Shown piece after piece: positions 14,279 to 50,524 of a DNA stretch of 64,000 bases. This stretch comes from a virus (Duplodnaviria; Heunggongvirae; Uroviricota; Caudoviricetes), in IMG/VR virus record IMGVR_UViG_3300028601_000019, positions 4,130 to 68,129 of that record. One strand, written 5' to 3'. The number at the start of each line of letters is the position of its first letter. The stretch's first letter is position 1. The notes under the pieces are model-generated. The model saw only the letters and a list, made by a program, of their open reading frames with translations. It did not search any database and was not told the DNA's origin. The position numbers and the translations under genes were made by a program.

Positions 14279-14410
14279 GATGTTCTACTCCTTTAGAATT
14301 TGAAAATGTTAATAGAGGTTAGAAATTGAAGGAGCAATTTCAACAATGGCCGTTGCTGTCCCTCTATTAAATTTAAAGATAAGATATTTTATTTACATTG
14401 TAAACAAAAA

Positions 14411-16342
14411 TTAAACTGCTCCAATTAATTCGTCAAAATCTGCGCCTGTTTTTGTAGCAATGAAGTTAAGTCTCAAGAATTCGGCACTTCTAGCTGGTTG
14501 CAGTCATATGTTGCCGTGCAATTCGTTGCGATCAATACGTTCTGGAGTATTAGTTGTCTCGTCAATTTGTACTTTGAATGCATAAATACCTCTGCGACCC
14601 TGTACATCGCGTAAGAAGGGCTCGATCATAGATCTTAATAAAAATCACGTAACTTCATCCGACATCTCGAAAAGAAAATATTTTGCACTTTTAGCAATAG
14701 ATTTTTCTAATACGAGGAATAATCTACGAACGTTAATTCTATTAAAAGCACTTTGTTTATCAAGCAATGTCTTTTGGCCTCATACTACTTTACCCTGACC
14801 ACTAAAAGAAACAATAGGATTAATACCAGCAACATATAATGCATCTCTATTTCCTTCAGTAGGATTAAAAGCAAGTCTACGTACACCAGTAATAACTGCT
14901 CTATTTAAACCTGCAGGGGCCCACCAAGCATCAGCTACATCATCAGTATGAGCATATAACCCAGCCATGTGTCCAGAAGCAGGTATCCAACGATATTTCT
15001 TATTCCAAGTATCAAATACTTCAAGCCAGTTTCCATAGATAGCAGCATAAGAAGTATTGGGATTAAAAGTAGAACCTGCCTGGCCCTTTCTTCATTTTAC
15101 CATATCTAAAGTTTCGGAACCTTTATTATTTAGAACATGACTTCTAAGAACATCAAGAATAGCAAAAGAATCACTTCTAATAACTTGACAAAGTTCAATT
15201 AAATGATCTTTTACTGTGACACCCTTATCAGATTCGATAAAGAGATTAACATCAATTTCTTCAGCATTGGCATATAAATTATATGCATCAATACATGCTG
15301 CATCTTCACCAGCTTGAACAGAAACGTCAGCATGTCTTCCAAAAAGACCATTTTTGCCACCAGAAAGCGCTGTTATTCTGGTCATAATTACAGCAATATT
15401 TTCTGCTTCGACTTCAGATGTTGTTTTAAATATTGGGTTTAAAGCAACATTAATATACTTAGATTGTTCATTGATTACGGTTTCTACAAAGTTAGAGACA
15501 CCAGAATCGTCAATTGAAGTTTCATCAGAAGAAACAATAAAGACTTCTTTATCTTCCCACATTGTAGAGCCTTGATCTTTAGCTTGAACCATTACAACAA
15601 ACTGTTTTTCGTCTGTCATCGGAGTATCAAGATCACGAATTACTGCAAAAGGAAGATTATCTTGGTAACCCACAGTTCCAAAATCTGGATTTGCTTCATA
15701 GTCGTTCCACATTGTTGTTACAGCTGCAGTAGCCGCAAGAGTTAATGTTACTCCAGAAGGAATATCAAAGGTTTCTGTCTGAGTGTCAAAATATTTAACA
15801 GCATCATAGGTTGCTTTATTATAAACAAGAACTCTAGAATTGTTGCCGAATTCGCCACGATATTTTGCCATAATCCAAAGCGGATCATCTTCACCCATTA
15901 GAGTATCTACCATTTCAGGGAACATTTTAAGATCAGTTGTTCCTAAAGAAACATAACTATATGGGTCATCATCTTCTGTGCCCGCAACAGTTCCTGTAAC
16001 TTCAAAAGTAAAATTAACCATTGCTTCTTGAACTGAATTTGTTCCAGTAAGAATTTTTGTGCCAGCAAAAGTGGCATCCTGCGGCATTACTCTTGTACAA
16101 TAAAGAGCATTACCATATTTTAGATATCCAACAGAAGTTAAAATATCAGTAAAAGATGCATCAGTTGGCTTACCAAAAGTGCTAATTAGTTCATCTGTAT
16201 TTGTTACTAAATACTGTTCGTATTCAGGCCCTTTGTATGTTTTTCGCAAAACGTTAACTGCAATAGATGTTGCTACTGCTGGAATCGTAGTGCTTAGATC
16301 GACTTCCCGGGGATATACACCTGGGGATAGGGAAAAGCTCAC
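14411..16342 (-). CDS. gp18: Tail sheath protein (T4 gp18-like), 643 aa, GTG start, TGA codons in the C-terminal third.
   Basis: The N-terminus MSFSLSPGVYPREVDLS is a sheath signature. The C-terminus ...RNELHGNIWLQPARSAEFLRLNFIATKTGADFDELIGAV resembles the gp18 C-terminus. Confidence 0.8.
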
Positions 16343-22500: not shown

Positions 22501-23484
22501 ATGAAACATGCTGTTTTTACTGATCTTCATGTTGGGTTAAATATTAATCAAGAAGTATGGGAAAAACTCCCTATTAAAGCTGTAGAATTTCTAACAACAG
22601 AAGCAAGAAGAAGAAATCTTAAATCTATTATTTTTGCTGGTGATTTTTATCATGATAAAAAAGAACTATCAATCAAAGCCATTGATTCAGCAAGAATAAT
22701 CTGCGAAATGTTAGATGAATTTCAAACATATATTATTTGTGGAAATCATGATGCGTATTTTAGAAATACAAACGAACTAAATTCCCTTCAAACAATAGAT
22801 AAGTTTAAAAACATTCATATTATTAATTCACCAACAATTATATATGATAAAATTGGTCTTTGCCCCTGGTCAACAGACTATAGAGAATTAAAATGCCCTA
22901 TTCTAATTGGTCATTTTGATATTAAAGATTTTAAAATGAATGATAATACAACATCTTTTAAAGGTGAAGAAATTTCAAGCTTTAAAGATTTTGAAATTGT
23001 TATTTCTGGTCATTATCATACATATTCCAAAAAAGGAAATATAGTATATATTGGAAATATGTATGGTCATAATTTTAATGATGTTAATGCAAGTAGAGGA
23101 TTTCATATTTTCGATGATGAAACTTTGGAATTAGAATTTGTAGAATTCAAAGATGCTCCTAAATTTATTCATGTTTTCGATATGGATCTTAATGAAGAAC
23201 AAATTAAAGGAAACATTATAAAAATCTATTTTACAAAAGAATATTCTGAAATGGATATCCTTGATTTTCTTACTCGAGTTAATTCGCTAAATCCTTTACA
23301 GGTTGATGTCAACTATTCCAGAATTGAAATGGAAGATGTTAAAATGGATATTCCTGAAGAGATTTTTTCAACATTAGATGAGAAACAATTGTTTCTTACT
23401 TACTTGGATAAAATTTCTATTCCTGATCATCTTAAACTTCCAATGTGTAAAAAGATTTTAGAAGATTTATTTAAAAATCAATAG
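22501..23484 (+). CDS. gp47: Mre11/SbcD-like recombination nuclease (T4 gp47-like), 327 aa.
   Basis: Metallophosphoesterase motifs DLHVG, GDFYH, GNHD and GHYH. T4 gene order 55-47. Confidence 0.8.
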   Translation: MKHAVFTDLHVGLNINQEVWEKLPIKAVEFLTTEARRRNLKSIIFAGDFYHDKKELSIKAIDSARIICEMLDEFQTYIICGNHDAYFRNTNELNSLQTIDKFKNIHIINSPTIIYDKIGLCPWSTDYRELKCPILIGHFDIKDFKMNDNTTSFKGEEISSFKDFEIVISGHYHTYSKKGNIVYIGNMYGHNFNDVNASRGFHIFDDETLELEFVEFKDAPKFIHVFDMDLNEEQIKGNIIKIYFTKEYSEMDILDFLTRVNSLNPLQVDVNYSRIEMEDVKMDIPEEIFSTLDEKQLFLTYLDKISIPDHLKLPMCKKILEDLFKNQ

Positions 23485-23486
23485 AA

Positions 23487-23525
23487 TAAAAAAGGTAACT
23501 AGAGCAATTTAGTTACCTTTTTAGT
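23487..23525 (+). terminator. Rho-independent terminator AAGGTAACTA-gagcaat-TTAGTTACCTT followed by a T-run.
   Basis: 10-bp stem. Confidence 0.7.
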
Positions 23526-23534
23526 TTCTGTTCA

Positions 23535-23860
23535 TTGTTTACCCAATCAATAATACCCATTAATCTATACCCTCCGTACTAAGTTATATTATAACTAACC
23601 TATCCGGATATCATTGTAAACAAACAAACTAGGAAAATTTTCGGCAATTTGATATCATGTCCGGAAAACTCAAGATTCTTGATGATTCTAGGAAACCTAA
23701 TTATATCAATAACTTAGAAATCCTCCAAATTCTTAGTTTTCCTAATCAAATTAAGTACTTAGAAGAAATCCTCAAAAAACTAGTGAAAATCGTGTATAAT
23801 TATATTGATTTTTTGCAGGATTCAGGAATCCTAATTATTGTAATAATTTAGGATTCTGAA
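23535..23860 (+). repeat. Copy 1 of a 330-bp dispersed repeat. It contains the palindromes AGTTATATTATAACT, AGGATTCAGGAATCCT and AATTATTGTAATAATT, and a small ORF (23657..23851).
   Basis: About 85-90% identical to 48598..48925. The first palindrome differs between copies but is perfect in both, a compensatory change. Confidence 0.7.
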
Positions 23861-23872
23861 AAAAGTAGTGTA

Positions 23873-23923
23873 CATTCTTTCAAAATCTGGTTATTCTGAA
23901 AACATCTTAACAAACAAAACCAA
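23873..23923 (+). promoter_or_regulatory. Early-type promoter AAAAAGTAGTGTACATT ... GGTTATTCTGAAAACATCTTAACAAAC.
   Basis: The 17-mer is shared with 27885. The leader resembles the others. Confidence 0.4.
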
Positions 23924-24304
23924 ATGGAGATTAAGATGTTTGCTATTATTAATGAAAAGAACGAAAGGTTGTCTAATGGTTACACACTTAAATTTGTAGA
24001 TGCTTCTAAACGCTGTTGTCTATGGAAGAATGAGACTCCTGCTAGGAATCTTTTGAATAAACTTACTGATGATGGTGTGGTTGGATTACGAGTTGAAGAT
24101 ATTGGGGATGAACTTCCTAAGGTTGAAAAGAAAGAACGAAAGCTAAAAGAAGAAACTCAATCTCAAGAAGAAGTTGAATTTGATGAAACTTCATTTTTTG
24201 AGCAAGGAATTAATGAAAAATGTTTGAGATGTGAGGGCGACTGTAAACAGTCAGCTCTTGTAAAAATTATTCGTTGCCCTAGTTTCAAAAAGATTAAAAA
24301 ATAA
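23924..24304 (+). CDS. Hypothetical protein of 126 aa with a C-terminal CxxC..C region.
   Basis: ORF with a ribosome-binding site. Confidence 0.5.
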   Translation: MEIKMFAIINEKNERLSNGYTLKFVDASKRCCLWKNETPARNLLNKLTDDGVVGLRVEDIGDELPKVEKKERKLKEETQSQEEVEFDETSFFEQGINEKCLRCEGDCKQSALVKIIRCPSFKKIKK

Positions 24305-24369
24305 TGTATGTACATTCTCTCAATAGTTTGATACTTCTATTTTTAACACAATCATTTAAGGAGATTTTA

Positions 24370-24645
24370 ATGAATTCATTATTTGAAAGAATAGAGCCCA
24401 TGGATGGAGAAGAAATTGCCAAAGAACTTGGAACAACCCGCCAGTATATTTGTAACACACTCAAATCTGCCCTCCGCAAAGTATACAAATCTCTTAAACA
24501 GAAAAATCCTGACATGACCCCCTTTGAAATTGTAAATGCTATTAGAGAATTTTTTGGAATTGAAGACACAGATGAAGTCCGCATATTTTTTCAATCTTTT
24601 CCCCCAGATGTTAGAGAAGAAGTAGAATCTTCAATGAAAATGTAA
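24370..24645 (+). CDS. Standalone sigma-70 region-4-like helix-turn-helix protein, 91 aa.
   Basis: MDGEEIAKELGTTRQYICNTLKSALRKV matches the sigma70_r4 pattern (L..eIA..lG.t...V.q....Al.kL). AAGGAG ribosome-binding site. Confidence 0.5.
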   Translation: MNSLFERIEPMDGEEIAKELGTTRQYICNTLKSALRKVYKSLKQKNPDMTPFEIVNAIREFFGIEDTDEVRIFFQSFPPDVREEVESSMKM

Positions 24646-24652
24646 TTTTTTA

Positions 24653-24700
24653 TTTACAAACATTAAAAAGTTTTATATTCTGATCTTAACAAAACAACAT
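24653..24700 (+). promoter_or_regulatory. Early-type promoter TTTACA (-35) ... TATATT (-10) plus the leader CTGATCTTAACAAAACAACA.
   Basis: Nearly identical to 24954-24995 and 12376-12425. Confidence 0.5.
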
Positions 24701-24717
24701 TAACAAAGGAAACGATC

Positions 24718-24948
24718 ATGGAAATCAAGAAGGGCGACATCATTAGAAGTTATGACTTTCATTTCAATACTGATTGTTATAATGTTGGCATCGTAACAGA
24801 TGTTGATGATAAATGGATTTATTTCACCTCTGGTAAGAAGGTTTGGATGGGAGAAGAGATTGAAGATTTCGATCCTTATATGAGAACCGCCCCAATTGGA
24901 TTCATGATGCTTGACGAAGAATTTGAAAGAATTTTAATTTTAGCTTAA
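24718..24948 (+). CDS. Hypothetical early protein, 76 aa.
   Basis: ORF after an early promoter. Confidence 0.5.
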   Translation: MEIKKGDIIRSYDFHFNTDCYNVGIVTDVDDKWIYFTSGKKVWMGEEIEDFDPYMRTAPIGFMMLDEEFERILILA

Positions 24949-25024
24949 TTTTTGTTTACAAACATTAAAAAGTTTTATATTTCTCTAATTAATATAAACA
25001 ACTTAATCAAATGGAGATTATCTC

Positions 25025-25846
25025 ATGGCTACCCCAGTAACTTCTATGAATCCTTTCTTTAATGTTGAACGTTCTCCCGTTTACACAAAGTTCAACGGCA
25101 AGGAAATTCGCCTCTCTAAGGATGTTCTTGTAAATGTTGAAACTGGAAACCCTGTAGGTATTGTTGGCAGGGACTACAAGGTAGTTACAAATGCCGAAGT
25201 TAATGAAATTTTTGGTGAAGCTTTTTCCAAATATAAGATTAAGCAAACTATGGATTTCATGAAGAAGGGTGGTGAAACTTGGGTACGCAGGATTGTTTTT
25301 GAAGATGATTCTCTTACCTTTGATGTTGGAAACGGCGACTCTCAACATGTAATGTTGGAAATTTTCAATGGATTCAATCTTACAACTCGCTACGGGTATG
25401 AAATTTCACTTTTCCGTTCTATTTGTTCAAATGGAATGGTTTTCGGAAGAAAAAATCTCTTTGGTTTGAACTTCACCCACATGAAGAATAATCTTGAAGT
25501 TATTCAAAACACCTTTGAACTTGGTACAAAGGAAATTGGTGAAACAATTATTCCTACCTGGCAAAAGTGGACCAAGATTCCTCACACAATGAAAGATATG
25601 GAAACATTTATTGATTCTCGAGATTATGTCAACAATGACAAGATGAAGGAACGAATTCTTGTCAAGTATGAGGAAATTATGAATCGTGAAAAGCATGATG
25701 AAACTCGATTCGGTGCGTTTAATACGCTTACTTACATGATGACTCATGAAACAAGTTCTCGTCGTGAAGATACATCAAACATTTTTGGCAATGCTTACAG
25801 GAAGTATGAGCGGCTTGCCCAAGATATGTACGAACTTCCCATGTAA
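25025..25846 (+). CDS. DUF932/TIGR03299-like phage-plasmid protein, 273 aa.
   Basis: NPVGIVGRDYKVVTNAEVNEIF and RSICSNGMVFG resemble conserved DUF932 motifs. Confidence 0.4.
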   Translation: MATPVTSMNPFFNVERSPVYTKFNGKEIRLSKDVLVNVETGNPVGIVGRDYKVVTNAEVNEIFGEAFSKYKIKQTMDFMKKGGETWVRRIVFEDDSLTFDVGNGDSQHVMLEIFNGFNLTTRYGYEISLFRSICSNGMVFGRKNLFGLNFTHMKNNLEVIQNTFELGTKEIGETIIPTWQKWTKIPHTMKDMETFIDSRDYVNNDKMKERILVKYEEIMNREKHDETRFGAFNTLTYMMTHETSSRREDTSNIFGNAYRKYERLAQDMYELPM

Positions 25847-25857
25847 ATAAAAATTTT

Positions 25858-25923
25858 GGGAGAGATGAACCTCTTTGAGGTCATAGCAAGCCTTGAACTT
25901 GCCTCAATTAAATTGACTCTCCC
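25858..25923 (+). repeat. 66-nt structured intergenic repeat, copy 1. It has an outer stem GGGAGAG/CTCTCCC and two internal hairpins.
   Basis: Identical to 29593..29658. It lies directly after a stop codon. Confidence 0.7.
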
Positions 25924-25942
25924 TAATTTTAAGGAGCTAATT

Positions 25943-26413
25943 ATGTATGGAACTACAGATGACCTTATAGGATATTATTTTCAATATAAAGGCATATATG
26001 TGGGTTGGGATGATAATAGTGGAATGGATATGTTTATTCATCATAAAATTAAAGCTGGAAATTTTTCAACAATTTTCAATATTGTACCAGATGATTTTGA
26101 ATTTCCAACGGGCGATGATTTAAAACAAATCTATAAAAACTGTAAAACAGTCAAAGGATTTAGAGAGTTTATTGGGTATCAAAATAAATATTGGACTTCA
26201 GATGTATATTCTGATAATATAATGTATGCTTTTAATTTTAATAGGGGGCAATTTTCTAGGGAATATAAATCTTCAGATGGTTGTTATGGAATTTATATTA
26301 GAAAGATTTACAGAAATGATGATTTAGGCAATGATGCCCACATGAAAAGTCGTGGGTTCTATTCCCATAGACTACGATGGAAGAAGGATCTACAAGAATA
26401 TGATTACAACTAA
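25943..26413 (+). CDS. Hypothetical protein of about 156 aa.
   Basis: AAGGAG ribosome-binding site. The standard-code ORF start at 25856 lies inside the repeat and was not used. Confidence 0.45.
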   Translation: MYGTTDDLIGYYFQYKGIYVGWDDNSGMDMFIHHKIKAGNFSTIFNIVPDDFEFPTGDDLKQIYKNCKTVKGFREFIGYQNKYWTSDVYSDNIMYAFNFNRGQFSREYKSSDGCYGIYIRKIYRNDDLGNDAHMKSRGFYSHRLRWKKDLQEYDYN

Positions 26414-26585
26414 AGAAGAATATCATAAAGCTCTTAGACGGCTTGATGAACTTTGTACAAAAGAAAATCTTTCAGTTAAAGAAACAATTGAACTTGACAA
26501 AGAACTAGTCATAGATATTCAACTTTATGAAGATTTTCTTTTTCGTGAGTATTTGGACGAAAACTTTTTAACTTATAAAAATTAG
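26400..26585 (+). CDS. Small hypothetical protein of 61 aa.
   Basis: Overlapping ATG. Weak. Confidence 0.3.
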   Translation: MITTKEEYHKALRRLDELCTKENLSVKETIELDKELVIDIQLYEDFLFREYLDENFLTYKN

Positions 26586-26597
26586 GAGGATTAGAAA

Positions 26598-26957
26598 ATG
26601 ATGATTCAGTATGTTAGACGTGGCAAGAGTAGGATTCCTTTTGGAACTATGACCGCGCAAAAGCTTACAAATGCGAAGGGAATTGAATATCTTTCTTTGG
26701 GCTGGTCTATTTGTAATAAGAAGGATACATTTTTTAAAAGTATTGGAAAGGTTGAATCTATGGATAGGGCTACACATCATGATTTTTTCATGATGGATAA
26801 TGAAACTACAAGAATGGATATTCCTTCATCTTTTGCAAAGAAGTTCGAGCGATTTGCACAAAGGGCATCAGCATATTTTCAAACTAAGCAGTTTCAGAAT
26901 GAATATTTTGTAACTACAACCGAAATTACAACAAAGGAAGAAAGATTGGATGTTTAG
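26598..26957 (+). CDS. Hypothetical protein, 119 aa.
   Basis: AGGAGG ribosome-binding site. Confidence 0.5.
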   Translation: MMIQYVRRGKSRIPFGTMTAQKLTNAKGIEYLSLGWSICNKKDTFFKSIGKVESMDRATHHDFFMMDNETTRMDIPSSFAKKFERFAQRASAYFQTKQFQNEYFVTTTEITTKEERLDV

Positions 26958-27087
26958 ACCAGATAAGGAAGATGGATTATTCACCTTAAATTCTGTCTTC
27001 CTTCTTATTAAGGATAATAATTATATATTAGTTACTTTTAAAGATTGCTCAGATGAAGCAAAGGGGGTTGAAATATGAAACATTGAA

Positions 27088-27324
27088 TTGCTTAAACAAT
27101 TGCCAACTGAATTTGCAATGGTTCCAAACATTCCTTGTAAAAAGGAGAATGATGCAGTTAGAGCCAAAGATGTATATAAGCTAAGAATGTTCTTTGAAAA
27201 ATTAGGTTTTGATTTCTTCTTTTGGCATGAAACGATGGAAGAAGAAAAAAACTTTGAAAATATTGAAAAATTCTATTTACAAAGAATCAAGCCTAGTATA
27301 GAAAAAGAATTAAGAAGACAATAA
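27088..27324 (+). CDS. Hypothetical protein of about 78 aa. Start uncertain.
   Basis: ORF. Confidence 0.3.
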   Translation: MLKQLPTEFAMVPNIPCKKENDAVRAKDVYKLRMFFEKLGFDFFFWHETMEEEKNFENIEKFYLQRIKPSIEKELRRQ

Positions 27325-27331
27325 TTTAACT

Positions 27332-27405
27332 GGCCCAGTAACTCAACTGGATAGAGTACGAACCTCCTAAGTTCGAAGTTGCAAGATCGTACCTTGCCGG
27401 GGTCA
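27332..27405 (+). tRNA. tRNA-Arg (anticodon CCU), 74 nt, with one A-G mismatch in the acceptor stem.
   Basis: Hand-folded cloverleaf: acceptor GGCCCAG, D-arm ACTC/GAGT, anticodon arm CGAAC-CTCCTAA-GTTCG, T-arm GCAAG-ATCGTAC-CTTGC. Confidence 0.6.
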
Positions 27406-27411
27406 CAAAAT

Positions 27412-27484
27412 GCTCCTGTAGTTCAATTAGCAGAATCCCCGGCTCATAACCGGACAGTTGTAGGTGCAAATCCTGCCGGGAGCA
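27412..27484 (+). tRNA. tRNA with a CAU anticodon (elongator Met, or Ile if modified to lysidine), 73 nt.
   Basis: Hand-folded cloverleaf: acceptor GCTCCTG/CGGGAGC, anticodon loop CTCATAA, T-arm GTAGG-TGCAAAT-CCTGC. The 1:72 pair is G-C, so it is not an initiator. Confidence 0.65.
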
Positions 27485-27508
27485 CAAACTTTTAAAAGGA
27501 GATTTGAA

Positions 27509-27739
27509 ATGATTAGAGAAAAATCAGAAAGAAGCAATAAACCAATTATTATTGATCTTACAGGGCCAGAAGGAAATGCGTATGCTCTTATGGCTTATGC
27601 CAAATCATTTGCAAAACATCTTAGCTACTCTGTTTCCGATATAGAACTAATGATATCTGATATGATGAGTTCAGATTATGAACATCTTCTTGAGGTTTTT
27701 GATTCCCATTTTGGTGATTATGTAATCTTGGAGCGATAA
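27509..27739 (+). CDS. Hypothetical protein, 76 aa.
   Basis: AAAGGAG ribosome-binding site. Confidence 0.5.
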   Translation: MIREKSERSNKPIIIDLTGPEGNAYALMAYAKSFAKHLSYSVSDIELMISDMMSSDYEHLLEVFDSHFGDYVILER

Positions 27740-27895
27740 ATGAAAAATATGATTGTGGTTGCTGATTTTTTCATGGATCAAGATGAAGTTTCTATTGTTG
27801 ATTTTATCTTAAAACATCAAAATGTTATTAAATCCATTTACTTTAATGGCGAATTTTATAGCGTAGAAAAAACTTTGGAAAATTTTAAAAAGTAG
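27740..27895 (+). CDS. Hypothetical protein, 51 aa.
   Basis: The ATG abuts the previous TAA. Confidence 0.35.
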   Translation: MKNMIVVADFFMDQDEVSIVDFILKHQNVIKSIYFNGEFYSVEKTLENFKK

Positions 27896-27945
27896 TGTAC
27901 ATTTGTTTTGACTTTTGTTATTCTGATCTTAACAAAACAACAATT
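27885..27945 (+). promoter_or_regulatory. Early-type promoter AAAAAGTAGTGTACATT..TTTGAC..GTTATTCTGATCTTAACAAAACAACAA.
   Basis: Shared 17-mer and conserved leader. Confidence 0.45.
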
Positions 27946-28018
27946 TAACCAAGGGAAAATAAAATGATCACTTTCTTCAAGAACTACGAAAATATTGATG
28001 AAAATGGGGGTATGAATA

Positions 28019-28483
28019 GTGAAGATTAGACATTGTTTCGTCTCAAATTCAAGTAGTTCAAGTTTTATCATTGGGTTAGCCAAGACAGATGACAACTCAG
28101 GAACAAAATTTGATTCTTCAAATTTGGTTTGGTCGGAATGGAACGAAAGTTATTTTCTGGAAGTAGAGGGTGGAAGATATTCCGGTGAAATTTATGTTCG
28201 TAAAAATGATGATGGGAGTTATAAACTTGAAATTGAATCTTTTATGGGATCATCAGTAACTTGTAATATTAAAGATGGAGAATACTTCCTTCATGTTGAT
28301 GGTGCTGGTCCAGGAGAGGATTCTTTCTTTTCTGTATATGATGATGATGGAAACTGGGTTGACATTGATTATGATATGATTGAACTTGACGATTTTGATA
28401 AAAAAGATGTTGAAAAGTTTTATAAGATTCGTGATCTTGGTGGGGATGCTACCTATGGAACAAAAGTTATTTTCTGGGAGTAG
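28019..28483 (+). CDS. Hypothetical protein of 154 aa with the N-terminus MKIRHCFVSNSSSSSFI. It is terminated by the junction of a tandem duplication.
   Basis: GTG start. Shares the MKIR.(C/F)FVSNSSSSSFI N-terminus with the 28794 gene. Confidence 0.45.
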   Translation: MKIRHCFVSNSSSSSFIIGLAKTDDNSGTKFDSSNLVWSEWNESYFLEVEGGRYSGEIYVRKNDDGSYKLEIESFMGSSVTCNIKDGEYFLHVDGAGPGEDSFFSVYDDDGNWVDIDYDMIELDDFDKKDVEKFYKIRDLGGDATYGTKVIFWE

Positions 28484-28780
28484 AGGGTGGAAGATATTCC
28501 GGTGAAATTTATGTTCGTAAAAATGATGATGGGAGTTATAAACTTGAAATTGAATCTTTTATGGGATCATCAGTAACTTGTAATATTAAAGATGGAGAAT
28601 ACTTCCTTCATGTTGATGGTGCTGGTCCAGGAGAGGATTCTTTCTTTTCTGTATATGATGATGATGGAAACTGGGTTGACATTGATTATGATATGATTGA
28701 ACTTGACGATTTTGATAAAAAAGATGTTGAAAAGTTTTATAAGATTCGTGATCTTGGTGGGGATGCTACCTATGGAGCAG
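28140..28780 (+). repeat. Tandem direct duplication of about 318 bp x 2. The second copy is out of frame.
   Basis: 28157-28470 is repeated at 28473-28790. The junction reads TTATTTTCTGG(G/A)AGTAGAGGGTGG. Confidence 0.8.
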
Positions 28781-28794
28781 GGAGGAATGGTTAA
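28561..28794 (+). pseudogene. Duplicated 3' fragment of the 28019 gene.
   Basis: The amino-acid sequence is identical to the C-terminus of the 28019 protein. Confidence 0.5.
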
Positions 28795-29116
28795 TGAAAA
28801 TTAGGAAATTTTTTGTAAGCAATAGTTCAAGCAGTAGCTTCATTGTCCTTACACAGGGAATTTCTGAAATTCAAAAAGAACTTCTTTTAAACATTGAAGA
28901 TGAGTGGTTTAAACAAGATCCTTGGAGAATTACTGAAGAAGAATTTTGGATTGAAGGGTATACATCCATGGATAACTTTGATATGAATGAATATATGGAA
29001 AAGATTGGTATTGATGTTAAAAAATATGTAAAATGGTGGTATGTTTACTTATGTTGGATCAATACTTGATGATGGAAATTTTGTTTATTCGATTGTCATT
29101 CGCATGTATTTACATT
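28794..29116 (+). CDS. Paralog of the 28019 gene (MKIRKFFVSNSSSSSFI). Its 3' end overlaps the 29041 ORF in another frame.
   Basis: N-terminal paralogy. Ends with a W-W-W run via TGA codons. Confidence 0.4.
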
Positions 29117-29262
29117 CCTTGGATAATGGGTTTATTGATGCTATTATTACATGGAATGATGGTGAGCGTGTAAATGTGACGGATGAAAAGGTTGATTATA
29201 ACATGCTCATGAATAAGCCGAACCTCTTTGCCACTACATATCTTGTTGAGGAAGCCCATTAA
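29041..29262 (+). CDS. Hypothetical protein of 73 aa in the +1 frame relative to the 28794 gene.
   Basis: Clean ORF without TGA. Confidence 0.35.
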   Translation: MFTYVGSILDDGNFVYSIVIRMYLHSLDNGFIDAIITWNDGERVNVTDEKVDYNMLMNKPNLFATTYLVEEAH

Positions 29263-29287
29263 TAATTTAACTTAGAGGAAAATTAAA

Positions 29288-29584
29288 ATGTGTGAAAATT
29301 CTACGATTATTGTTTATGATCCTTATGGAAATGCAAATTTGACCAATGACGGCAATTTGCATGAAAAGGCAAAGGAACTTCTTACTGACTTTAGGGTACA
29401 TGAGATTTATAGGTCCATTACCATTACTGTATGTCAGAAGTCTCTTGCAGGAACCCTTGTTTCCATGTGCAAAAGCAATTATCCCAATTATGGGTGGGTA
29501 AAGGTTTTTGACCCCTATAATGCTCTAACCAATTCCAAGTATCTGAAACATTACGTTCAGAATTCAAGTCCCGAAATCGACTAA
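29288..29584 (+). CDS. Hypothetical protein, 98 aa.
   Basis: GAGGAAAATTAAA ribosome-binding site. Confidence 0.5.
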   Translation: MCENSTIIVYDPYGNANLTNDGNLHEKAKELLTDFRVHEIYRSITITVCQKSLAGTLVSMCKSNYPNYGWVKVFDPYNALTNSKYLKHYVQNSSPEID

Positions 29585-29592
29585 TCTTTTTT

Positions 29593-29658
29593 GGGAGAGA
29601 TGAACCTCTTTGAGGTCATAGCAAGCCTTGAACTTGCCTCAATTAAATTGACTCTCCC
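29593..29658 (+). repeat. 66-nt structured intergenic repeat, copy 2.
   Basis: Identical to 25858..25923. Confidence 0.7.
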
Positions 29659-29683
29659 CTTCTTTATTTAAAAGGACTTATAT

Positions 29684-30226
29684 ATGGAAAAATATTTTAA
29701 AAATTTGGTTGAAGATTTAGAATGTTTACTTGATGATTATGTTGTTTACCCATATAAAAGAATTAGAGATAAGTATTACGATGTTAAATATGGAATCAAG
29801 AACCTAATTCGATGGTTCCCAGTTATTTGGGGTGATCGTGATTGGGATTTTGCATATATGTTTGCTCTTCTCGAAAAGAAGTTTGAACACTATGAAAAAG
29901 AGTGGAGTTCTGATGCATGTTTTGTTGTAGGATCTGAAAAACAAGTAAAGAGATTCAAGATTTGCAAAGAACTTTGTAGACGATTAAAAGATGATTGGTA
30001 TTATCATGAAAATACTTTTATGTTCCATGATAAGAAATGGGGGGATTTAGAATTTACAGATAGCCCTAGATGTATTACACGAACAAATATAAAATCTAAG
30101 GAAGATGATGATCTTGAAGCAACAGAATCCCTTAGATTATTTAAGATTGAAAATGCAAGAAAAGATGCGGATGTTGAACTTCTTCAAATGTATATTAGAA
30201 AATATTGGAAGACATGGTGGTGGTAA
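29684..30226 (+). CDS. Hypothetical protein, 180 aa.
   Basis: ORF with a ribosome-binding site. Confidence 0.5.
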   Translation: MEKYFKNLVEDLECLLDDYVVYPYKRIRDKYYDVKYGIKNLIRWFPVIWGDRDWDFAYMFALLEKKFEHYEKEWSSDACFVVGSEKQVKRFKICKELCRRLKDDWYYHENTFMFHDKKWGDLEFTDSPRCITRTNIKSKEDDDLEATESLRLFKIENARKDADVELLQMYIRKYWKTWWW

Positions 30227-30227
30227 T

Positions 30228-30525
30228 GGATAGAACATCTGACTCCACAAAGATTGAAAAGATTATTATAATCCACACACCGCTTGGAAGATGCTACTAT
30301 AATGTTGGTGGAATGAGAACTGATACAACAGCATGTATAATGTGTGAAAGTAATATTCCTTTTGAATCTGAATGTATAACGATTAAAATAGACGATTCAT
30401 TTGAAACAGAAGAAATAAATGAATGTGTGAAGTTTCATAAAGATGATTTACTTGATGAACAAGAAAGATTTTTGAAAGAAAAAGAGAAACGAAACTTTAG
30501 AAGAATGTGTAAAGGAAGGAGATAA
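30228..30525 (+). CDS. Hypothetical Cys-rich protein of about 99 aa.
   Basis: ORF. Start chosen at MDRTSDS. Confidence 0.4.
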
Positions 30526-30526
30526 A

Positions 30527-30961
30527 ATGACTATTCAAAATGACCTAATGAAAGAACTGGCTAATACTGCCAAAGAAGGCGTGACTATCCGTAGGAACAA
30601 CATCAAGTTTCTTGTTGGGCAGTTTCAAAGAGTGGCTAAAAACAAGGAAAAGATTGTTGAAGATTCTGAAGCTATCAAGATCATGAAGAATCTTTACTCA
30701 TCAATGAAGGAAATTACTCTTCCAAGTTTGAAAAAAGATGGTTATGAGTATTTTGAAGCCATTGATTTTATTGTCCTTTGTGAGGAACTTCTTCCAAAAA
30801 TGGCTACAGAATCAGAAGTTATTGAATTTCTTACATCTATTGACTTCAAAAGTCTGAAGTCTCCAATGCAAGCTATTGGAATTACAGTAAAACACTTTAA
30901 TGGAAATGTGAAACCTGAACTTGTAAGAAATTGTTTACCTTTTCTTGGGATCTATGTATAG
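30527..30961 (+). CDS. Hypothetical protein, 144 aa.
   Basis: ORF. Confidence 0.5.
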   Translation: MTIQNDLMKELANTAKEGVTIRRNNIKFLVGQFQRVAKNKEKIVEDSEAIKIMKNLYSSMKEITLPSLKKDGYEYFEAIDFIVLCEELLPKMATESEVIEFLTSIDFKSLKSPMQAIGITVKHFNGNVKPELVRNCLPFLGIYV

Positions 30962-30979
30962 TTGCTTTAGGAGGGATAA

Positions 30980-31345
30980 ATGGTTATTGATAATGTTGAT
31001 GAACTAAACGACCAGATTAGTAAATTTTTAAAATTTGAAAAGGATCTTAAAGATTATTTGATTGGTTATTTTAAAAACAAATCAATTTCTCTTGAAGATA
31101 GATGGGCTACCTTTGAAAGAATTGGGAACATTTTTCCAATCCATCCATGGTACATATCACTTAAAGAGCTTGATAATAATGATTTAGAATGGTATGCTGA
31201 TTTTGGATATGATAGATATAGAACAGTTGAATTTCTTGAAGTTGTTCAAACAATTGAAGAAAATGATTATATGGACGTAGATTTAAATAGATTAAAAGAA
31301 GAAATTCTTGAAAGTGGATATTTCGGGTTCACTCACGATTGGTAA
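30980..31345 (+). CDS. Hypothetical protein, 121 aa.
   Basis: GGAGGG ribosome-binding site. Confidence 0.5.
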   Translation: MVIDNVDELNDQISKFLKFEKDLKDYLIGYFKNKSISLEDRWATFERIGNIFPIHPWYISLKELDNNDLEWYADFGYDRYRTVEFLEVVQTIEENDYMDVDLNRLKEEILESGYFGFTHDW

Positions 31346-31584
31346 AAATTAACGGAGGAAAAATGTTAAAATTATATTGTTGGGTTGTTCTTGTGTTTTT
31401 TATTTTGGTAGGAAACTTTGGGTTTGTGTTACCCTATCTTGTATCTGCTGCTCATACTGAGCTTGTTCTTTTGGGTTGTGTTATTGGGTTGATTATTCCT
31501 ATTGCGTTAGTGTTTATTGTTAAATATAAAATTATCCCAATTGTTAAAGAAATGATTGGAAAAGCTACCAAAGGAGAAATGTAG
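31339..31584 (+). CDS. Small protein with two transmembrane helices, 81 aa. A possible NfeD-like partner of the SPFH gene.
   Basis: Two hydrophobic helices. Lies immediately upstream of the SPFH gene. Confidence 0.45.
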   Translation: MVKINGGKMLKLYCWVVLVFFILVGNFGFVLPYLVSAAHTELVLLGCVIGLIIPIALVFIVKYKIIPIVKEMIGKATKGEM

Positions 31585-31585
31585 A

Positions 31586-32449
31586 ATGAAAAAGATTATG
31601 TTGCTTGTGGGTCTAATGTTGATGATGTTTATGTGTACCGGATGCCTTGAGCGTGTTCCTTCTGGCCATGTTGGTGTAAAGGTTTTCCTACTTGGCGGTG
31701 ATAAAGGCGTAGATAGTCAAGAACTTGGGGTTGGTCGTTATTGGATTGGATGGAATGAGGAATTACATATTTTCCCAACATTTACTCAAAACTATGTTTG
31801 GACTGCCGATGTAACAGAGGGTTCTGAAACAGATGAATCAATTACATTCCAAACAATGGAAGGACTATCAGTAAATGCTGATATTGGTATTGCATATCAT
31901 ATTGATCCTACTAAGGTATCAGTAATTTTTCAGAAGTATCGTAAGGGTGTGCAAGAAATTACTGATATTTACCTACGAAACATTGTAAGAGATGCCTTTG
32001 CAACTGTCGCATCTAATCGCCCTGTAGAGTTTGTTTATGGTGAAGGAAAATCTGAACTTAGAACAGAAGTTGAAAATATTGTAAAGGCTAAAGTTGAACC
32101 AATTGGTATTATCATTGAACAGATTTCTTTTGTAGGCAATTTAAGACTTCCAGAAACTGTTATTAGTGCCATTAATGCTAAGATTGAGGCAACACAAACG
32201 GCACAGAGAGCAGAAAATCAACTTCGTGAAGCAGAGGCAGAAGCACGAAAGAAGATTGCAGAAGCTCAAGGCCAAGCCGAATCCATTAAGTTGGTCGCAA
32301 TTTCACAAGCCGAAGCTAACAAGATTCTTAGTGCATCTATTACATCTAACCTAGTAGAATATAAGCGTATTGAAAAGTGGAACGGGATCATGCCAACATA
32401 TATGGCAGGGAACATGCCAACACCAATGTTAAATATGAAGTCTGAGTAA
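31586..32449 (+). CDS. SPFH/Band-7 (prohibitin/HflK-like) family lipoprotein, 287 aa.
   Basis: Signal peptide with a lipobox (MKKIMLLVGLMLMMFMCTGC). SPFH core GHVGVKVFLLGG... A C-terminal EA-repeat coiled coil (REAEAEARKKIAEAQGQAE). Confidence 0.65.
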   Translation: MKKIMLLVGLMLMMFMCTGCLERVPSGHVGVKVFLLGGDKGVDSQELGVGRYWIGWNEELHIFPTFTQNYVWTADVTEGSETDESITFQTMEGLSVNADIGIAYHIDPTKVSVIFQKYRKGVQEITDIYLRNIVRDAFATVASNRPVEFVYGEGKSELRTEVENIVKAKVEPIGIIIEQISFVGNLRLPETVISAINAKIEATQTAQRAENQLREAEAEARKKIAEAQGQAESIKLVAISQAEANKILSASITSNLVEYKRIEKWNGIMPTYMAGNMPTPMLNMKSE

Positions 32450-32466
32450 AATAACTGTTTACAAGT

Positions 32467-32505
32467 ATGAAAGGGTTTGATAGGGTTTTCTTATCAAACC
32501 CTTTC
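32467..32505 (+). terminator. Hairpin GAAAGGGTTTGATA-gggttttct-TATCAAACCCTTTC, with a 14-bp stem.
   Basis: Perfect inverted repeat after the SPFH gene. The following T-run is weak. Confidence 0.55.
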
Positions 32506-32522
32506 ACATTTAGGAGATTAGA

Positions 32523-48507: not shown

Positions 48508-48597
48508 AGAGTTAAAATCTCCATAAAATTAATTTTGTTTTAATTATTTATAAGAAATTAAAGATGTCAATGCCGATTCATTCACCATAGCATTTGT

Positions 48598-48925
48598 TTA
48601 CCCAATCAATATTACATATTAATCTATGCCCTCCGTACTAAGTTAATATATTAACTAACCTATTTCTCCAGGGTTGTAAACAAAGAAAATTCAAAAACAT
48701 TCAAAATTCTCACCTTCTAAATTAATAAGTCCAGAAAACTCAAGATTCTTGATGATTTTAGGAAGCCTAATTATATCAATAACTTAGAAATCCTCCAAAT
48801 TCTTAGTTTTCCTAATAAATCTAAATACTTAGAAGAAATTATCCGGAAAATCATAGAAATGGTGTATAATTATATTGATTTTTTGCAGGATTCAGGAATC
48901 CTAATTATTGTAATAATTTAGGAAT
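48598..48925 (+). repeat. Copy 2 of the 330-bp dispersed repeat (see 23535). It lies between divergent gene clusters.
   Basis: Same palindromes, with compensatory substitutions (AGTTAATATATTAACT). Confidence 0.7.
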
Positions 48926-48966
48926 CCTAAAAGAATTTTTGTTTTTTATGGATGATTATATTTTTT

Positions 48967-48974
48967 CTATAAAT
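48967..48974 (+). promoter_or_regulatory. Late promoter TATAAATA.
   Basis: Exact motif about 35 nt upstream of the 49010 ATG. Confidence 0.45.
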
Positions 48975-49009
48975 AATTAAAACACATTATTATGTTTAGA
49001 GGAAATATT

Positions 49010-50518: not shown

Positions 50519-50524
50519 TTTACT

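What the first reader, a model, noticed from the sequence alone, without database searches (positions are those of the whole stretch)
23535..23860. 330-bp dispersed repeat with compensatory palindromes
Two copies sit about 25 kb apart (23535..23860 and 48598..48925), both in intergenic regions at transcription-unit boundaries. Each contains three perfect palindromes. The first differs in sequence between copies but stays perfect in each (AGTTATATTATAACT versus AGTTAATATATTAACT). This implies selection for structure, either DNA cruciform or RNA hairpin. A GTTTAC -35-like motif and a small ORF are embedded. Candidate functions are a replication origin, a recombination site or a promoter/regulatory cassette.
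Basis: seen in the sequence. Interest (0 to 1): 0.65.

Follow-up and report, generated by a model that had tools for sequence, protein, structure and literature searches.

The report
Repeated phage promoter cassette, IHF-like sites
The 330-bp repeat is a real, non-coding, multi-copy control cassette of an uncultured T4-like phage, and what it conserves is a promoter-like box plus three evenly phased sites that look like binding sites for the DNA-bending protein IHF, rather than its palindromes.

Summary
The repeat is real: 23535-23862 and 48594-48932, with conserved blocks 89-92% identical around a variable middle. The window is a deep-branching T4-like phage that reads TGA as Trp.

The repeat is not a recent duplication. 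Orthologous copies sit after the gp47 gene in five other phage genomes. A third copy lies upstream of gp41 outside the window. Short-read contigs break at its borders. Copies within one genome resemble each other more than their orthologues do, which indicates gene conversion.

The embedded ORF is not coding. No Rfam family and no consistent RNA fold was found.

Three things are conserved across genomes:
- A -10-like TATA(A/T)AT box, a pyrimidine tract, a small weak hairpin and TGTAAAC.
- Two 18-nt sites, AATnATWTCARnnASTTA, exactly 45 bp apart in every genome. A third lies 134-135 or 144-146 bp from the first, about one helical turn apart.
- At the gp47 locus, the third site ends 16-18 bp before the -35 of the next T4-type early promoter.

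The sites match the canonical IHF elements: WATCAR, TTR, two AA steps 9 bp apart, and often an A-tract.

Best reading: a DNA-level promoter and architectural cassette. A replication origin of the T4 oriE kind remains a serious rival. The "compensatory palindrome" argument is only weakly supported.

The parts
23489..23522 (+). Intrinsic terminator of the gp47/Mre11-like gene. It marks the left boundary of the intergenic region that holds copy A.
   Evidence: 15-pair stem followed by a T run. The gene was identified by Pfam Metallophos hits on its homologues.
23535..23862 (+). Copy A of the cassette, whole element.
   Evidence: Orthologues follow gp47 in phages X, Y, Z, W and V.
23537..23575 (+). 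Promoter-like module P1: GTTTAC (23537-42), an 18-nt spacer, TAATCT (23561-66) overlapping TATACC (23566-71), then the pyrimidine tract CCCTCC (23570-75).
   Evidence: It has the same form as the window's T4-type early promoters, GT(G/T)TAC-N18-TATTCT. A TATA(A/T)AT box plus a C/T tract is kept in all relatives. The generic sigma-70 scan did not call it, so this is inferred.
23582..23596 (.). Palindrome 1, AGTTATATTATAACT, a small hairpin or dyad just after the pyrimidine tract.
   Evidence: Stability is -2.4 kcal/mol as DNA, z = -2.45.
23615..23621 (+). Conserved TGTAAAC, the reverse complement of the early -35 motif GTTTACA. It lies 45-46 nt after the pyrimidine tract in the copies of win, X, Y and W.
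   Evidence: for the spacing; for invariance in win, X and Y; for Z and W. It is absent in V.
23622..23656 (.). Variable, locus-specific middle region.
   Evidence: 50% identity between A and B. The B orthologues of win and X are the most alike here, at 63%.
23657..23851 (+). It is judged non-coding.
   Evidence: variable sites fall 40/41/39 over the three codon positions. There is no start codon in winB, X_B or X_C, and stops occur at different places.
23699..23716 (+). Site a, AATTATATCAATAACTTA, an IHF-consensus-like site with core TATCAATAACTTA at 23704-16.
23744..23761 (+). Site b, AATCAAATTAAGTACTTA, exactly 45 bp after site a.
   Evidence: The 45-bp spacing holds in all six genomes.
23767..23822 (.). 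Long imperfect hairpin H3. Its arms are AATCCTCAAAAAA and TTTTTGCAGGATT, and its core is GTGTATAATTATAT (TATAAT at 23796-23801). The core is inverted in some paralogues of phage X.
   Evidence: Inversion is shown: reverse-complement scores of 20-25 against 8-13 direct.
23833..23850 (+). Site c, AATTATTGTAATAATTTA, a degenerate third site that is also part of the palindrome CCTAATTATTGTAATAATTTAGG. It lies 134 bp after site a.
23868..23897 (+). Early-type promoter P2 (GTGTAC-N18-TATTCT) of the downstream gene at 23924. It lies outside the repeat but in fixed register with site c.
   Evidence: (family D5). One search shows the end of site c lies 16-18 nt before the -35 in five orthologues.
48594..48932 (+). 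Copy B of the cassette, whole element.
   Evidence: The orthologue in phage X is L019:639-985.
48596..48634 (+). P1-like module of copy B: GTTTAC 48596-601, TAATCT 48620-25, CCCTCC 48629-34.
48641..48656 (.). Palindrome 1 of copy B, AGTTAATATATTAACT. The same form occurs in all X copies and in Z.
48769..48786 (+). Site a of copy B, AATTATATCAATAACTTA.
48814..48831 (+). Site b of copy B, 45 bp after site a. It is degenerate, with 3 mismatches to the 18-nt consensus.
48903..48920 (+). Site c of copy B, 134 bp after site a.
48968..48975 (+). T4-type late promoter TATAAATA of the head-tail adaptor gene. It follows copy B in place of an early promoter.
   Evidence: and 51 (SU10_adaptor).
48543..48570 (-). 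Leftward sigma-70-like promoter (TTGACA-16-AATAAT), back to back with the 5' end of copy B.
   Evidence: 11 of 12 matches to the consensus.

Best explanation
The repeat is a non-coding cassette that acts at the DNA level. It marks the heads of transcription units in this T4-like phage lineage and has two modules.

Module 1, about 90 bp, is an early-type promoter (P1). It has a -35 GTTTAC in the window phage and a -10-like TATA(A/T)AT box in all relatives. A pyrimidine-rich tract follows, then a small dyad, then TGTAAAC.

Module 2, about 200 bp, is an array of three same-orientation sites, each roughly 34 bp. The sites carry the canonical recognition elements of the DNA-bending protein IHF. Two of them are always 45 bp apart. 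The third lies a further 89-90 or 99-101 bp on, a difference of about one helical turn.

Proposed mechanism (inferred): an IHF-type protein bends the DNA sharply at the three sites. That protein could be the host's, or a phage protein of the same specificity. The bends fold the roughly 200 bp into a compact nucleoprotein structure. This structure lies directly upstream of the next promoter, since site c ends 16-18 bp before its -35 at the gp47 locus. It would set the activity or the insulation of early transcription there. P1 adds a second start upstream.

The copies are kept alike within each genome by gene conversion between them.

Shown here: the repeat, its copy number, its orthology, its non-coding nature, the motif, the spacings and the concerted evolution. 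Inferred: promoter activity, the identity of the binding protein and the effect on transcription.
For: - The 18-nt motif AATnATWTCARnnASTTA is invariant or nearly so at the positions of WATCAR, at TTR four bases further on, and at an AA step 9 bp upstream of the AA/AR of the core. Two of the four 'N' positions and all flanks vary between genomes. These are the elements of the canonical 34-bp IHF site as described in PMC1874591. About half the sites also have a 4-7 nt A-tract 8-10 nt upstream (sequences).
- The motif is asymmetric and all sites point the same way. This fits a heterodimeric bender rather than a dimeric repressor or a hairpin.
- The a-to-b spacing is exactly 45 bp in six phage genomes, although the sequence between the sites is unrelated.
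- The a-to-c spacing is 134, 134, 134, 134 and 135 bp, or 144, 145 and 146 bp. This keeps helical phase, as expected for a DNA-protein architecture and not for RNA or coding sequence.
- At the gp47 locus the end of site c lies 16-18 nt before the T(G/T/A)TAC of a T4-type early promoter in five genomes.
- Solo sites in phage X and in an unrelated contig also lie just upstream of early-type promoters.
- A -10-like box plus a C/T tract is conserved in all relatives. In the window phage P1 has the same GTTTAC-N18-TAnnnT form as its other early promoters. That form matches the T4/PST early consensus TTTACW-N17-TAYWAT (PMC4122927).
- The element is non-coding: there is no codon-position bias and no conserved start or stop.
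- The element is probably not an RNA gene: there is no Rfam match, and RNAalifold gives -3.4 kcal/mol with no supporting covariation (its covariation term is +0.28). The 5' block folds with z-scores from +0.7 to -0.7 in five of six copies and -2.2 in phage Y, and different folds are predicted for the two window copies.
- Evolution is concerted: paralogues are 89-98% identical in the conserved blocks, against 77-82% for win-versus-X comparisons, orthologues included. The variable middle follows orthology instead.
Against: - No IHF or HU gene was seen in the window or in 354 kb of related loci. The host is unknown, so a protein able to read the sites is assumed.
- Position 2 of the core is T as often as A. 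Several b and c sites have 2-3 mismatches to the 18-nt consensus.
- The bare 13-nt IHF consensus is not enriched in the window: 12 matches found against 15 expected. The case therefore rests on cross-genome conservation, not on the match itself.
- T4 itself has no known need for IHF, and no paper linking IHF sites to T4-like phages was found.
- P1 was not called by the generic promoter scan, and its -35 is not conserved in W and L040.
- In the B copies the cassette is followed by a late promoter 39-47 bp away, not by an early one. A role restricted to early promoter P2 therefore cannot be general.
- The distance from site to promoter varies from 6 to 38 bp at solo sites and other loci.
Confidence: 0.45

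Rival explanations
1. The copies are the phage's origins of replication. An early-mode promoter supplies a primer RNA, and an array of evenly spaced protein-binding repeats, bent by IHF as at oriC, pSC101 or R6K, helps open the DNA. This is the architecture proposed for T4 oriE, an early promoter plus iterons. Here the same cassette would be used at several places in the genome.
For: [quoted passage not shown] The most active origins lie where transcription diverges (PMC3016281).
- Copy B and the copy upstream of gp41 (X_C and winC) lie at divergent junctions.
- The copies sit next to replication and recombination genes: gp47, uvsW, and the gp41 helicase with RNase H.
- The spacing of the sites is strictly conserved and keeps helical phase.
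- The sequence after the promoter is variable, as tolerated in the unwinding elements of T4 oriF and oriG.
- A small inversion inside hairpin H3 suggests the inverted repeat is extruded, or recombines, in vivo.
Against: - There is no helical-stability minimum inside the element. The region just after P1 is average or more stable than average.
- An RNA made from P1 would be C-rich at its start, which is unfavourable for a persistent R-loop (inference).
- Copies A and D lie within co-directional gene runs rather than at divergent junctions.
- Site c is in fixed register with the next promoter. That points to transcription rather than replication.
- T4 origins share no motif, and the role of the oriE iterons is itself unproven.
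Confidence: 0.25
2. The element works as RNA. It would be either a roughly 300-nt leader or a non-coding RNA made from P1. Its hairpins (palindrome 1, H3, site-c hairpin) would control stability, termination or translation. The CCCUCC tract would act as an anti-Shine-Dalgarno-like sequence.
For: - A hairpin lies right after the putative start in every lineage, with different sequences: AGTTA/TAACT, GATAA/TTATC and GAAAT/ATTTC.
- H3 is kept as an inverted repeat with changed arms in different copies.
- The 3' block folds better than shuffled sequence, z = -2.6.
- One U-G pair in H3 of phage Y would work only on the + strand. This comes from reading the sequence.
Against: - No Rfam family matches.
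- The consensus fold is -3.4 kcal/mol with no supporting covariation; RNAalifold's covariation term is +0.28.
- The 5' block is not better than shuffles in five of six copies.
- Both strands fold equally well, and the two window copies give different folds.
- The core of H3 occurs in both orientations.
- The best-conserved features are asymmetric sequence motifs at fixed DNA spacing that differ by one helical turn.
- No terminator follows the element.
Confidence: 0.1
3. The main role of the repeat is as a recombination substrate. It would be a large relative of the PeSL cassettes of T4-like phages, or an attP-like site with three IHF sites. Exchange between copies would shuffle or excise gene modules.
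For: - Gene conversion between copies is evident.
- Modules occur separately. Copy X_D has the 3' block only, fused to the end of an ORF, and solo sites exist.
- A small inversion has occurred between the arms of H3.
- PeSLs are promoter plus stem-loop cassettes that mediate modular shuffling (PMC4122927).
- Lambda attP also carries three IHF sites (my own knowledge, not tested here).
Against: - No integrase or site-specific recombinase is seen nearby.
- The positions of copies A, B and C are stable across genomes.
- Conserved spacings and motifs imply a function beyond mere homology.
- Recombination between direct copies 25 kb apart would delete essential genes.
Confidence: 0.1
4. The element encodes a small protein, the 64-aa ORF at 23657-23851, and the repeat is a duplicated gene.
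For: An ATG-initiated ORF is present in copy A and, at the same place, in phage Y (60 aa). Several A/B differences look conservative.
Against: - Variable sites are spread evenly over the codon positions, 40/41/39.
- There is no start codon in winB, X_B or X_C, and stops fall at different places.
- Sites a and c are the same DNA motif read in different frames.
- No Pfam or PHROG search was run on the ORF itself; the one Pfam call that included it failed on another sequence.
Confidence: 0.02
5. The repeat is a recent duplication or a non-autonomous mobile element (MITE or IS-derived) with no function of its own.
For: It is dispersed and multi-copy. The same window carries two TnpB-type IS copies.
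Against: - Orthologous positions are kept in six genomes whose gp47 proteins are 60-87% identical to the window's.
- The middle region is locus-specific and follows orthology.
- I saw no terminal inverted repeats or target duplications when reading the two ends; no dedicated test was run.
- There is no similarity to the IS ends.
- Strict motif and spacing conservation persists despite 20-50% divergence elsewhere in the element.
Confidence: 0.03

Closest known systems
Canonical IHF binding sites and the multi-site IHF architectures built from them (lambda attP H1/H2/H'; upstream regions of lambda pL and Mu Pe; oriC, pSC101 and R6K origins)
   Same: The sites are asymmetric, roughly 34-bp units. 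They carry WATCAR, TTR four bases on, two AA steps 9 bp apart and often a 5' A-tract. Several sites lie in fixed phase within about 200 bp next to a promoter.
   Different: Position 2 is T or A. There are extra conserved bases: T at -2, A at 0, and A-S before TTA. Binding is untested. The host is unknown and no IHF gene was seen. The setting, a lytic T4-like phage, has no precedent that I could find. The named multi-site systems come from my own knowledge and were not tested here.
PeSL cassettes (promoter-early stem-loop) of T4-like phages (Arbiol 2010; Comeau 2014, PMC4122927)
   Same: Both are repeated intergenic regulatory cassettes of T4-like phages, built around a T4-type early promoter with a stem-loop just upstream. 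Copies are alike within a genome, and both are linked to recombination between copies.
   Different: PeSLs are short: an A/T-rich tract, a promoter, a Shine-Dalgarno sequence and a start codon. They occur many times in hyperplastic regions. This element is 330 bp and present in 3-4 copies at conserved positions. It has its own upstream promoter-like module and three phased protein-site motifs, and in copy B it precedes a late promoter.
T4 oriE (and oriF/oriG) replication origins (Kreuzer and Brister 2010, PMC3016281)
   Same: Both combine an early-mode promoter with a cluster of evenly spaced direct repeats in a non-coding or small-ORF region. Some copies lie at points of transcriptional divergence and near replication genes.
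   Different: The T4 oriE repeats are 12 nt and unrelated in sequence. T4 origins share no common motif, whereas here one cassette is reused. No A+T-rich unwinding element was detected. Origin activity is untested.
RIP/RIB (BIME-1) elements of E. coli: repeated intergenic elements with an IHF site flanked by REP palindromes
   Same: Both are dispersed intergenic repeats at transcription-unit boundaries that combine IHF-type sites with palindromes.
   Different: RIP/RIB elements are chromosomal, about 100 bp, have a single IHF site and no promoter module. This comparison rests on my own knowledge only and was not tested here.

Membership tests
Canonical IHF-type binding site | Core WATCAR | tested here: met
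   In twelve a and b sites from six genomes, T1 is 11/12, T3 is 12/12, C4 is 10/12, A5 is 12/12 and R6 is 12/12. Position 2 is A in 6 and T in 6.
Canonical IHF-type binding site | TTR four bases after the core, with poorly conserved bases between | tested here: met
   TTA is present in 12/12 sites. The first two of the four spacer bases vary (TA, CT, CC, GT, TG), while the last two are mostly A-C/G.
Canonical IHF-type binding site | Two AA steps 9 bp apart (the proline intercalation sites) | tested here: met
   AA at -4/-3 is present in 12/12 sites, 9 bp upstream of the AA/AR at +5/+6. The definition comes from PMC1874591. The mapping of positions is my own reading.
Canonical IHF-type binding site | A-tract of 4-6 in the 5' half (present in some sites only) | tested here: inconclusive
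   It is present 8-10 nt upstream in about 10 of 18 sites, for example W b, Z a and b, V a and b, and Y a and c. It is absent from the window's sites a, b and c.
Canonical IHF-type binding site | Bound and bent by an IHF protein available in the infected cell | not testable with these tools
   The host is unknown. No HU/IHF-like ORF was found in the window or in 354 kb of related loci.
PeSL cassette | T4-type sigma-70-like early promoter (TTTACW-N17-TAYWAT) | tested here: met
   P2 is GTGTAC-N18-TATTCT at 23868-97. P1 is GTTTAC-N18-TAATCT at 23537-66.
PeSL cassette | Stem-loop immediately upstream of the promoter | tested here: inconclusive
   In the window phage site c is part of a 14-15 bp inverted repeat that ends 10 nt before P2. 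In W and Z the same site is not palindromic.
PeSL cassette | Short unit ending in a Shine-Dalgarno sequence and start codon, present many times in hyperplastic regions | tested here: not met
   The element is 330 bp and present in 3-4 copies at conserved loci. The repeat ends before P2, and in copy B it precedes a late promoter.
T4-type replication origin | Promoter supplying a primer transcript | tested here: inconclusive
   P1 is promoter-like by sequence and by conservation only.
T4-type replication origin | [quoted passage not shown] | tested here: not met
   The nearest-neighbour stability profile shows no minimum inside the element. The region 23600-23700 is of average or above-average stability.
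T4-type replication origin | Evenly spaced direct repeats (oriE type) | tested here: met
   Three same-orientation sites lie at 45 bp and then 89-101 bp.
T4-type replication origin | Initiation of DNA synthesis at the site | not testable with these tools
   This needs nascent-strand or marker-frequency data from infected cells.
Structured non-coding RNA | Match to a described family, or a conserved fold with covariation | tested here: not met
   No Rfam hit has an E-value below 1. RNAalifold gives -3.4 kcal/mol. The 5' block is not better than shuffles in five of six copies.
Protein-coding gene (ORF 23657-23851) | Conserved reading frame with a third-position excess of changes | tested here: not met
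   Variable sites fall 40/41/39 over the codon positions. Start and stop are not conserved.
MITE / IS-derived element | Terminal inverted repeats, target duplication and variable insertion sites among relatives | tested here: not met
   I saw no terminal inverted repeats or target duplication when reading the ends; this was by eye only. The loci are the same in six genomes. There is no similarity to the TnpB IS ends.

The most novel reading that the evidence does not exclude
One reusable, sequence-defined origin cassette fires at three or four places in the genome of a T4-like phage. Each copy would have an early promoter for the primer RNA and a phased array of three IHF-type bends that opens the DNA. 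This lineage would then depend on an IHF-type host (or phage) protein for initiating replication or early transcription. Neither is known for T4, whose origins share no motif.
Probability: 0.2. Interest if true: 0.7.

Novelty: new variant of a known kind. Interest (0 to 1): 0.5.

Why it matters
T4-like phages are the textbook case of transcription and replication control, but that knowledge comes almost entirely from T4 itself. This deep-branching, TGA-recoded lineage has a major capsid protein only 37% identical to that of any cultured phage. It reuses one 330-bp cassette at the heads of several transcription units, with protein-site spacing kept to the base pair across genomes.

If the sites are read by IHF, three things follow:
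- It would be the first indication that a T4-like phage relies on this host architectural protein.
- It would narrow the host to organisms that have IHF-type proteins.
- It would give a concrete, mutable target for asking how early transcription or origin firing is organised outside the T4 model.

The cassette also has a practical effect. It breaks short-read assemblies of these phages at predictable points.

Tried and rejected
- **Searches for the repeat elsewhere.** BLASTN of the element against 50,697 phage records found no match. An exact 45-mer search in IMG/VR found none.
- **Metagenome scan.** A scan with the 5'-block pattern returned only phage Y plus four chance hits.
- **Adaptor-gene search.** A protein-based search around the adaptor gene returned only phage X again.
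- **Rfam.** Searches at gathering and at E-value thresholds found nothing relevant.
- **RNA structure.** The consensus was weak, the 5' block was not better than shuffles in five of six copies, and both strands folded equally well. I rejected this as the main explanation.
- **Small ORF.** Rejected on codon-position counts.
- **Unwinding element.** None was found.
- **Bare IHF consensus.** The 13-mer is not enriched in the window, 12 found against 15 expected. The IHF argument was kept only because of the cross-genome conservation pattern.
- **HU/IHF-like genes.** None were found by motif search in the window or in any fetched locus.
- **Host identification.** Searching bacterial and archaeal genomes with the TnpB protein gave only 49-58% matches on 2-kb contigs of MAGs labelled Woesearchaeota and Peribacteria, which is uninformative.
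- **Link to the TnpB IS copies.** There is no sequence similarity.
- **A candidate trans-factor.** A 91-aa protein two genes downstream of copy A resembles sigma-70 region 4. The hits are below threshold: Pfam E = 0.0012 and PHROG sigma factor E = 2e-4. I note it only as a lead.
Full report
**Setting**

The window is part of a T4-like myovirus. It carries a gp55-like late sigma factor (Sigma70_r2) and a gp47/Mre11-like nuclease. It also carries gp46-, UvsX-, UvsW-, portal-, sheath- and gp23-like genes, which I recognised by reading the translations. T4-type late promoters TATAAATA are present. Its G+C content is about 31%. Many genes are open only if TGA is read as a sense codon, taken here as Trp: the longest ORF rises from 676 to 1405 codons. 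The major capsid protein is at most 37.7% identical to that of any cultured phage, so this is a deep, uncultured branch.

**The observation**

Two direct copies exist at 23535-23862 (A) and 48594-48932 (B). They consist of three parts:
- a conserved 5' block, 89% identical over the first 66 alignment columns;
- a variable middle, 50% identical;
- a conserved 3' block, 92% and 87% identical in its two halves.

Copy A lies between the terminator of gp47 (23489-23522) and an early-type promoter. Copy B lies between a leftward sigma-70-like promoter and the late promoter of the head-tail adaptor gene.

Dyad symmetry exceeds shuffled controls moderately. The 3' block has z of about -2.5 in both copies. 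The first hairpin has z of about -2.4 but is worth only about -2.5 kcal/mol.

**More copies and relatives**

Searches with conserved motifs and with flanking proteins brought in five related phage genomes.

| Phage | Loci |
|---|---|
| X | several IMG/VR contigs with identical sequence |
| Y | L001, L025 |
| Z | L032, L033 |
| W | L037, L038 |
| V | L036 |

All carry an orthologous element directly after gp47.

Phage X also has these copies:
- the orthologue of copy B;
- a further full copy upstream of the gp41 helicase gene, at a divergent junction;
- a partial copy with the 3' block only;
- a solo site.

The window phage itself has a third copy upstream of gp41. A contig from the same samples begins with TGTATAATTATATTGATTTTTTG.AGGATTCA, the core shared by A and B.

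Short-read contigs of six phages stop 30-140 nt after the gp47 stop, or start 138-230 nt before gp41. That is at the borders of the repeat, as expected for a multi-copy sequence.

The element is therefore old and stable in position, not a recent duplication. Within a genome the conserved blocks are 89-98% identical, while win-versus-X comparisons, orthologues included, are only 77-82% identical. The variable middle is most alike between the B orthologues of win and X, at 63%. This pattern is concerted evolution by gene conversion.

**What it is not**

The 64-codon ORF in copy A is not a gene. Variable sites fall equally on the three codon positions (40/41/39). Three copies have no start codon, and stops differ between copies.

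No Rfam family matches. RNAalifold finds a consensus of only -3.4 kcal/mol. The 5' block folds no better than shuffles in five of six copies. Both strands of the 3' block fold equally well, and the predicted folds of the two window copies differ.

I saw no terminal inverted repeats or target duplications when reading the ends, and there is no similarity to the two TnpB-type IS copies in the window. No helical-stability minimum lies in the element.

**What is conserved**

1. *The 5' module.* A -10-like TATA(A/T)AT box is followed within 0-5 nt by a pyrimidine tract: CCCTCC, CCCTCTTCCC, CCCCTCTCCCC or CCCTTTCCCC. A small dyad follows. Then comes TGTAAAC, 45-46 nt after the tract in the win, X, Y and W copies. 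In the window phage the upstream part reads GTTTAC-N18-TAATCT. This is the same form as its other early promoters, GT(G/T)TAC-N18-TATTCT. It is close to the T4/PST early consensus (PMC4122927).

2. *The site array.* An 18-nt motif, AATnATWTCARnnASTTA, occurs twice exactly 45 bp apart in every genome, although the sequence between the two sites is unrelated across genomes. A third, more degenerate copy lies 134-135 bp from the first in five elements and 144-146 bp in three, about one helical turn apart. All sites point the same way, and the motif is not palindromic.

3. *Register with the next promoter.* At the gp47 locus the third site ends 16-18 nt before the -35 of the next early promoter in five genomes.

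4. *Hairpin H3.* Between the second and third sites lies a long imperfect inverted repeat with A-run and T-run arms. Its core (GTGTATAAT...) is inverted in three paralogues of phage X relative to the fourth. Reverse-complement alignment scores are 20-25 against 8-13 direct.

**The sites look like IHF sites**

Per-position counts over twelve sites from six genomes show invariance at these places:
- T-(A/T)-T-C-A-R;
- TTA four bases further on;
- an AA step nine bases upstream of the AA/AR of the core.

Two of the four spacer bases and the flanks vary between genomes. According to PMC1874591, the canonical 34-bp IHF site is defined by WATCAA, by TTR four base pairs away, by two AA steps nine base pairs apart, and in some sites by an A-tract in the 5' half. 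About half of the sites here also have a 4-7 nt A-tract 8-10 nt upstream, for example AAAAAAGTGTAATAATATCAACCAGTTA in W.

The bare 13-nt consensus is not enriched in the window, with 12 found against 15 expected. The argument therefore rests on which positions are conserved across genomes, not on the match alone. Binding is untested. No HU/IHF gene was seen in the sequences held, and the host is unknown.

**Interpretation**

Base-pair-exact spacing, steps of one helical turn, asymmetric same-orientation sites and unrelated sequence between sites together indicate a nucleoprotein architecture on DNA. They do not fit an RNA or a protein-coding sequence.

The most economical reading is a promoter-plus-architectural cassette. 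P1 is followed by three sharp bends that form the upstream region of the next promoter. The copies are kept alike by gene conversion.

A replication origin of the T4 oriE kind is a serious rival. oriE combines an early promoter with evenly spaced repeats and lies at a point of transcriptional divergence (PMC3016281). Two loci, copy B and the gp41-upstream copy, are at divergent junctions, and the latter sits directly upstream of the replicative helicase gene. The missing unwinding element and the fixed register with the next promoter tip the balance towards transcription.

The hairpin is A/T-only and marginally stable. Only five pairs are common to all close relatives. More distant relatives have a different small dyad at the same place. 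One uncompensated change is seen.

**Comparison with known systems**

The element shares features with PeSL cassettes, but it fails their definition in size, copy number and content. It resembles multi-site IHF architectures and T4 oriE, but membership of either cannot be tested in silico.

I found no report linking IHF sites to T4-like phages. I rate it a new variant of a known kind: a repeated phage regulatory cassette built from promoter and architectural-protein sites.

Noticed in passing
window 25854-25923 and 29589-29658: This is an exact 70-nt repeat. It folds as a cloverleaf-like four-way junction, with a 7-bp closing stem GGGAGAG/CUCUCCC and three hairpins. The fold is -25.4 kcal/mol, z = -4.55, and 0 of 200 shuffles fold as well. 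Neither ARAGORN nor Rfam calls it. It could be a tRNA-like element or another structured RNA or mobile-element end.
   Followed up: partly
window, whole; e.g. 22501-37648 versus 2319-4310, 13307-16087, 48992-54917: TGA must be read as a sense codon, taken here as Trp, in many genes, but its use is uneven. A block of early or replication-type genes is almost free of TGA, while the terminase, sheath, baseplate and tail genes carry up to 10 each. No suppressor tRNA is in the window; only tRNA-Arg(CCT) and tRNA-Met are present, at 27332-27485.
   Followed up: partly
window 972-2312 and 32581-33930: There are two copies of an IS-like element, 88% identical, each encoding a 393-aa TnpB/Cas12f-like protein. 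The closest genomic relatives are 49-58% identical, on 2-kb contigs of MAGs labelled Woesearchaeota and Peribacteria.
   Followed up: partly
window 2319-4310 (- strand): The terminase large subunit has an insertion of about 150 aa right after the P-loop (...QSGK|CVSWD...VKSHN|STT...). This looks like a mini-intein. The Pfam Terminase_6N match starts only at residue 235.
   Followed up: no
window 28138-28779: This is a tandem duplication with a 317-bp period, 99% identical. It duplicates part of an ORF (27998-28483 and 28561-28794).
   Followed up: no
window 9979-10028 and 11008-11057: This is a 50-nt repeat, 94% identical: a late promoter TATAAATA plus leader and ribosome-binding site. It precedes ORF 10026-10991 and the gp23-like major capsid gene.
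   Followed up: no
window 12368-12407, 23860-23899, 24647-24679, 24949-24981, 27887-27926: This is a family of T4-type early promoters, A-rich tract + GT(G/T)TAC + N16-18 + TAT(A/T)(T/C)T, followed by a shared leader ...CTTAACAAA.... These resemble PeSL cassettes.
   Followed up: partly
window 24370-24645 (91-aa reading of ORF 24304-24645): This small protein has a weak sigma-70 region 4-like helix-turn-helix (Pfam E = 0.0012, PHROG sigma factor E = 2e-4, both below threshold). It lies two genes downstream of copy A. A 91-aa ORF sits at the same position in Z and W; its homology to this protein was not checked. It is a possible trans-acting factor, but this is untested.
   Followed up: partly
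L034, L035, L039, L040, L042, L043 (ends) and L044, L045, L046 (starts): Short-read assemblies of these phages break at the borders of the cassette, 30-140 nt after gp47 and 138-230 nt before gp41. This is a practical cause of fragmented genomes for this lineage.
   Followed up: yes
window 13307-14278 (- strand); L004:4019-5413: A gene between the capsid and sheath genes shares a C-terminal ...HRYFPDFYIPKDNLI.E.KS..TY... motif with a gene next to gp32 in phage X. That motif suggested to me a free-standing homing-endonuclease-like gene. In phage X the gene's stop codon lies inside a solo IHF-like site.
   Followed up: no
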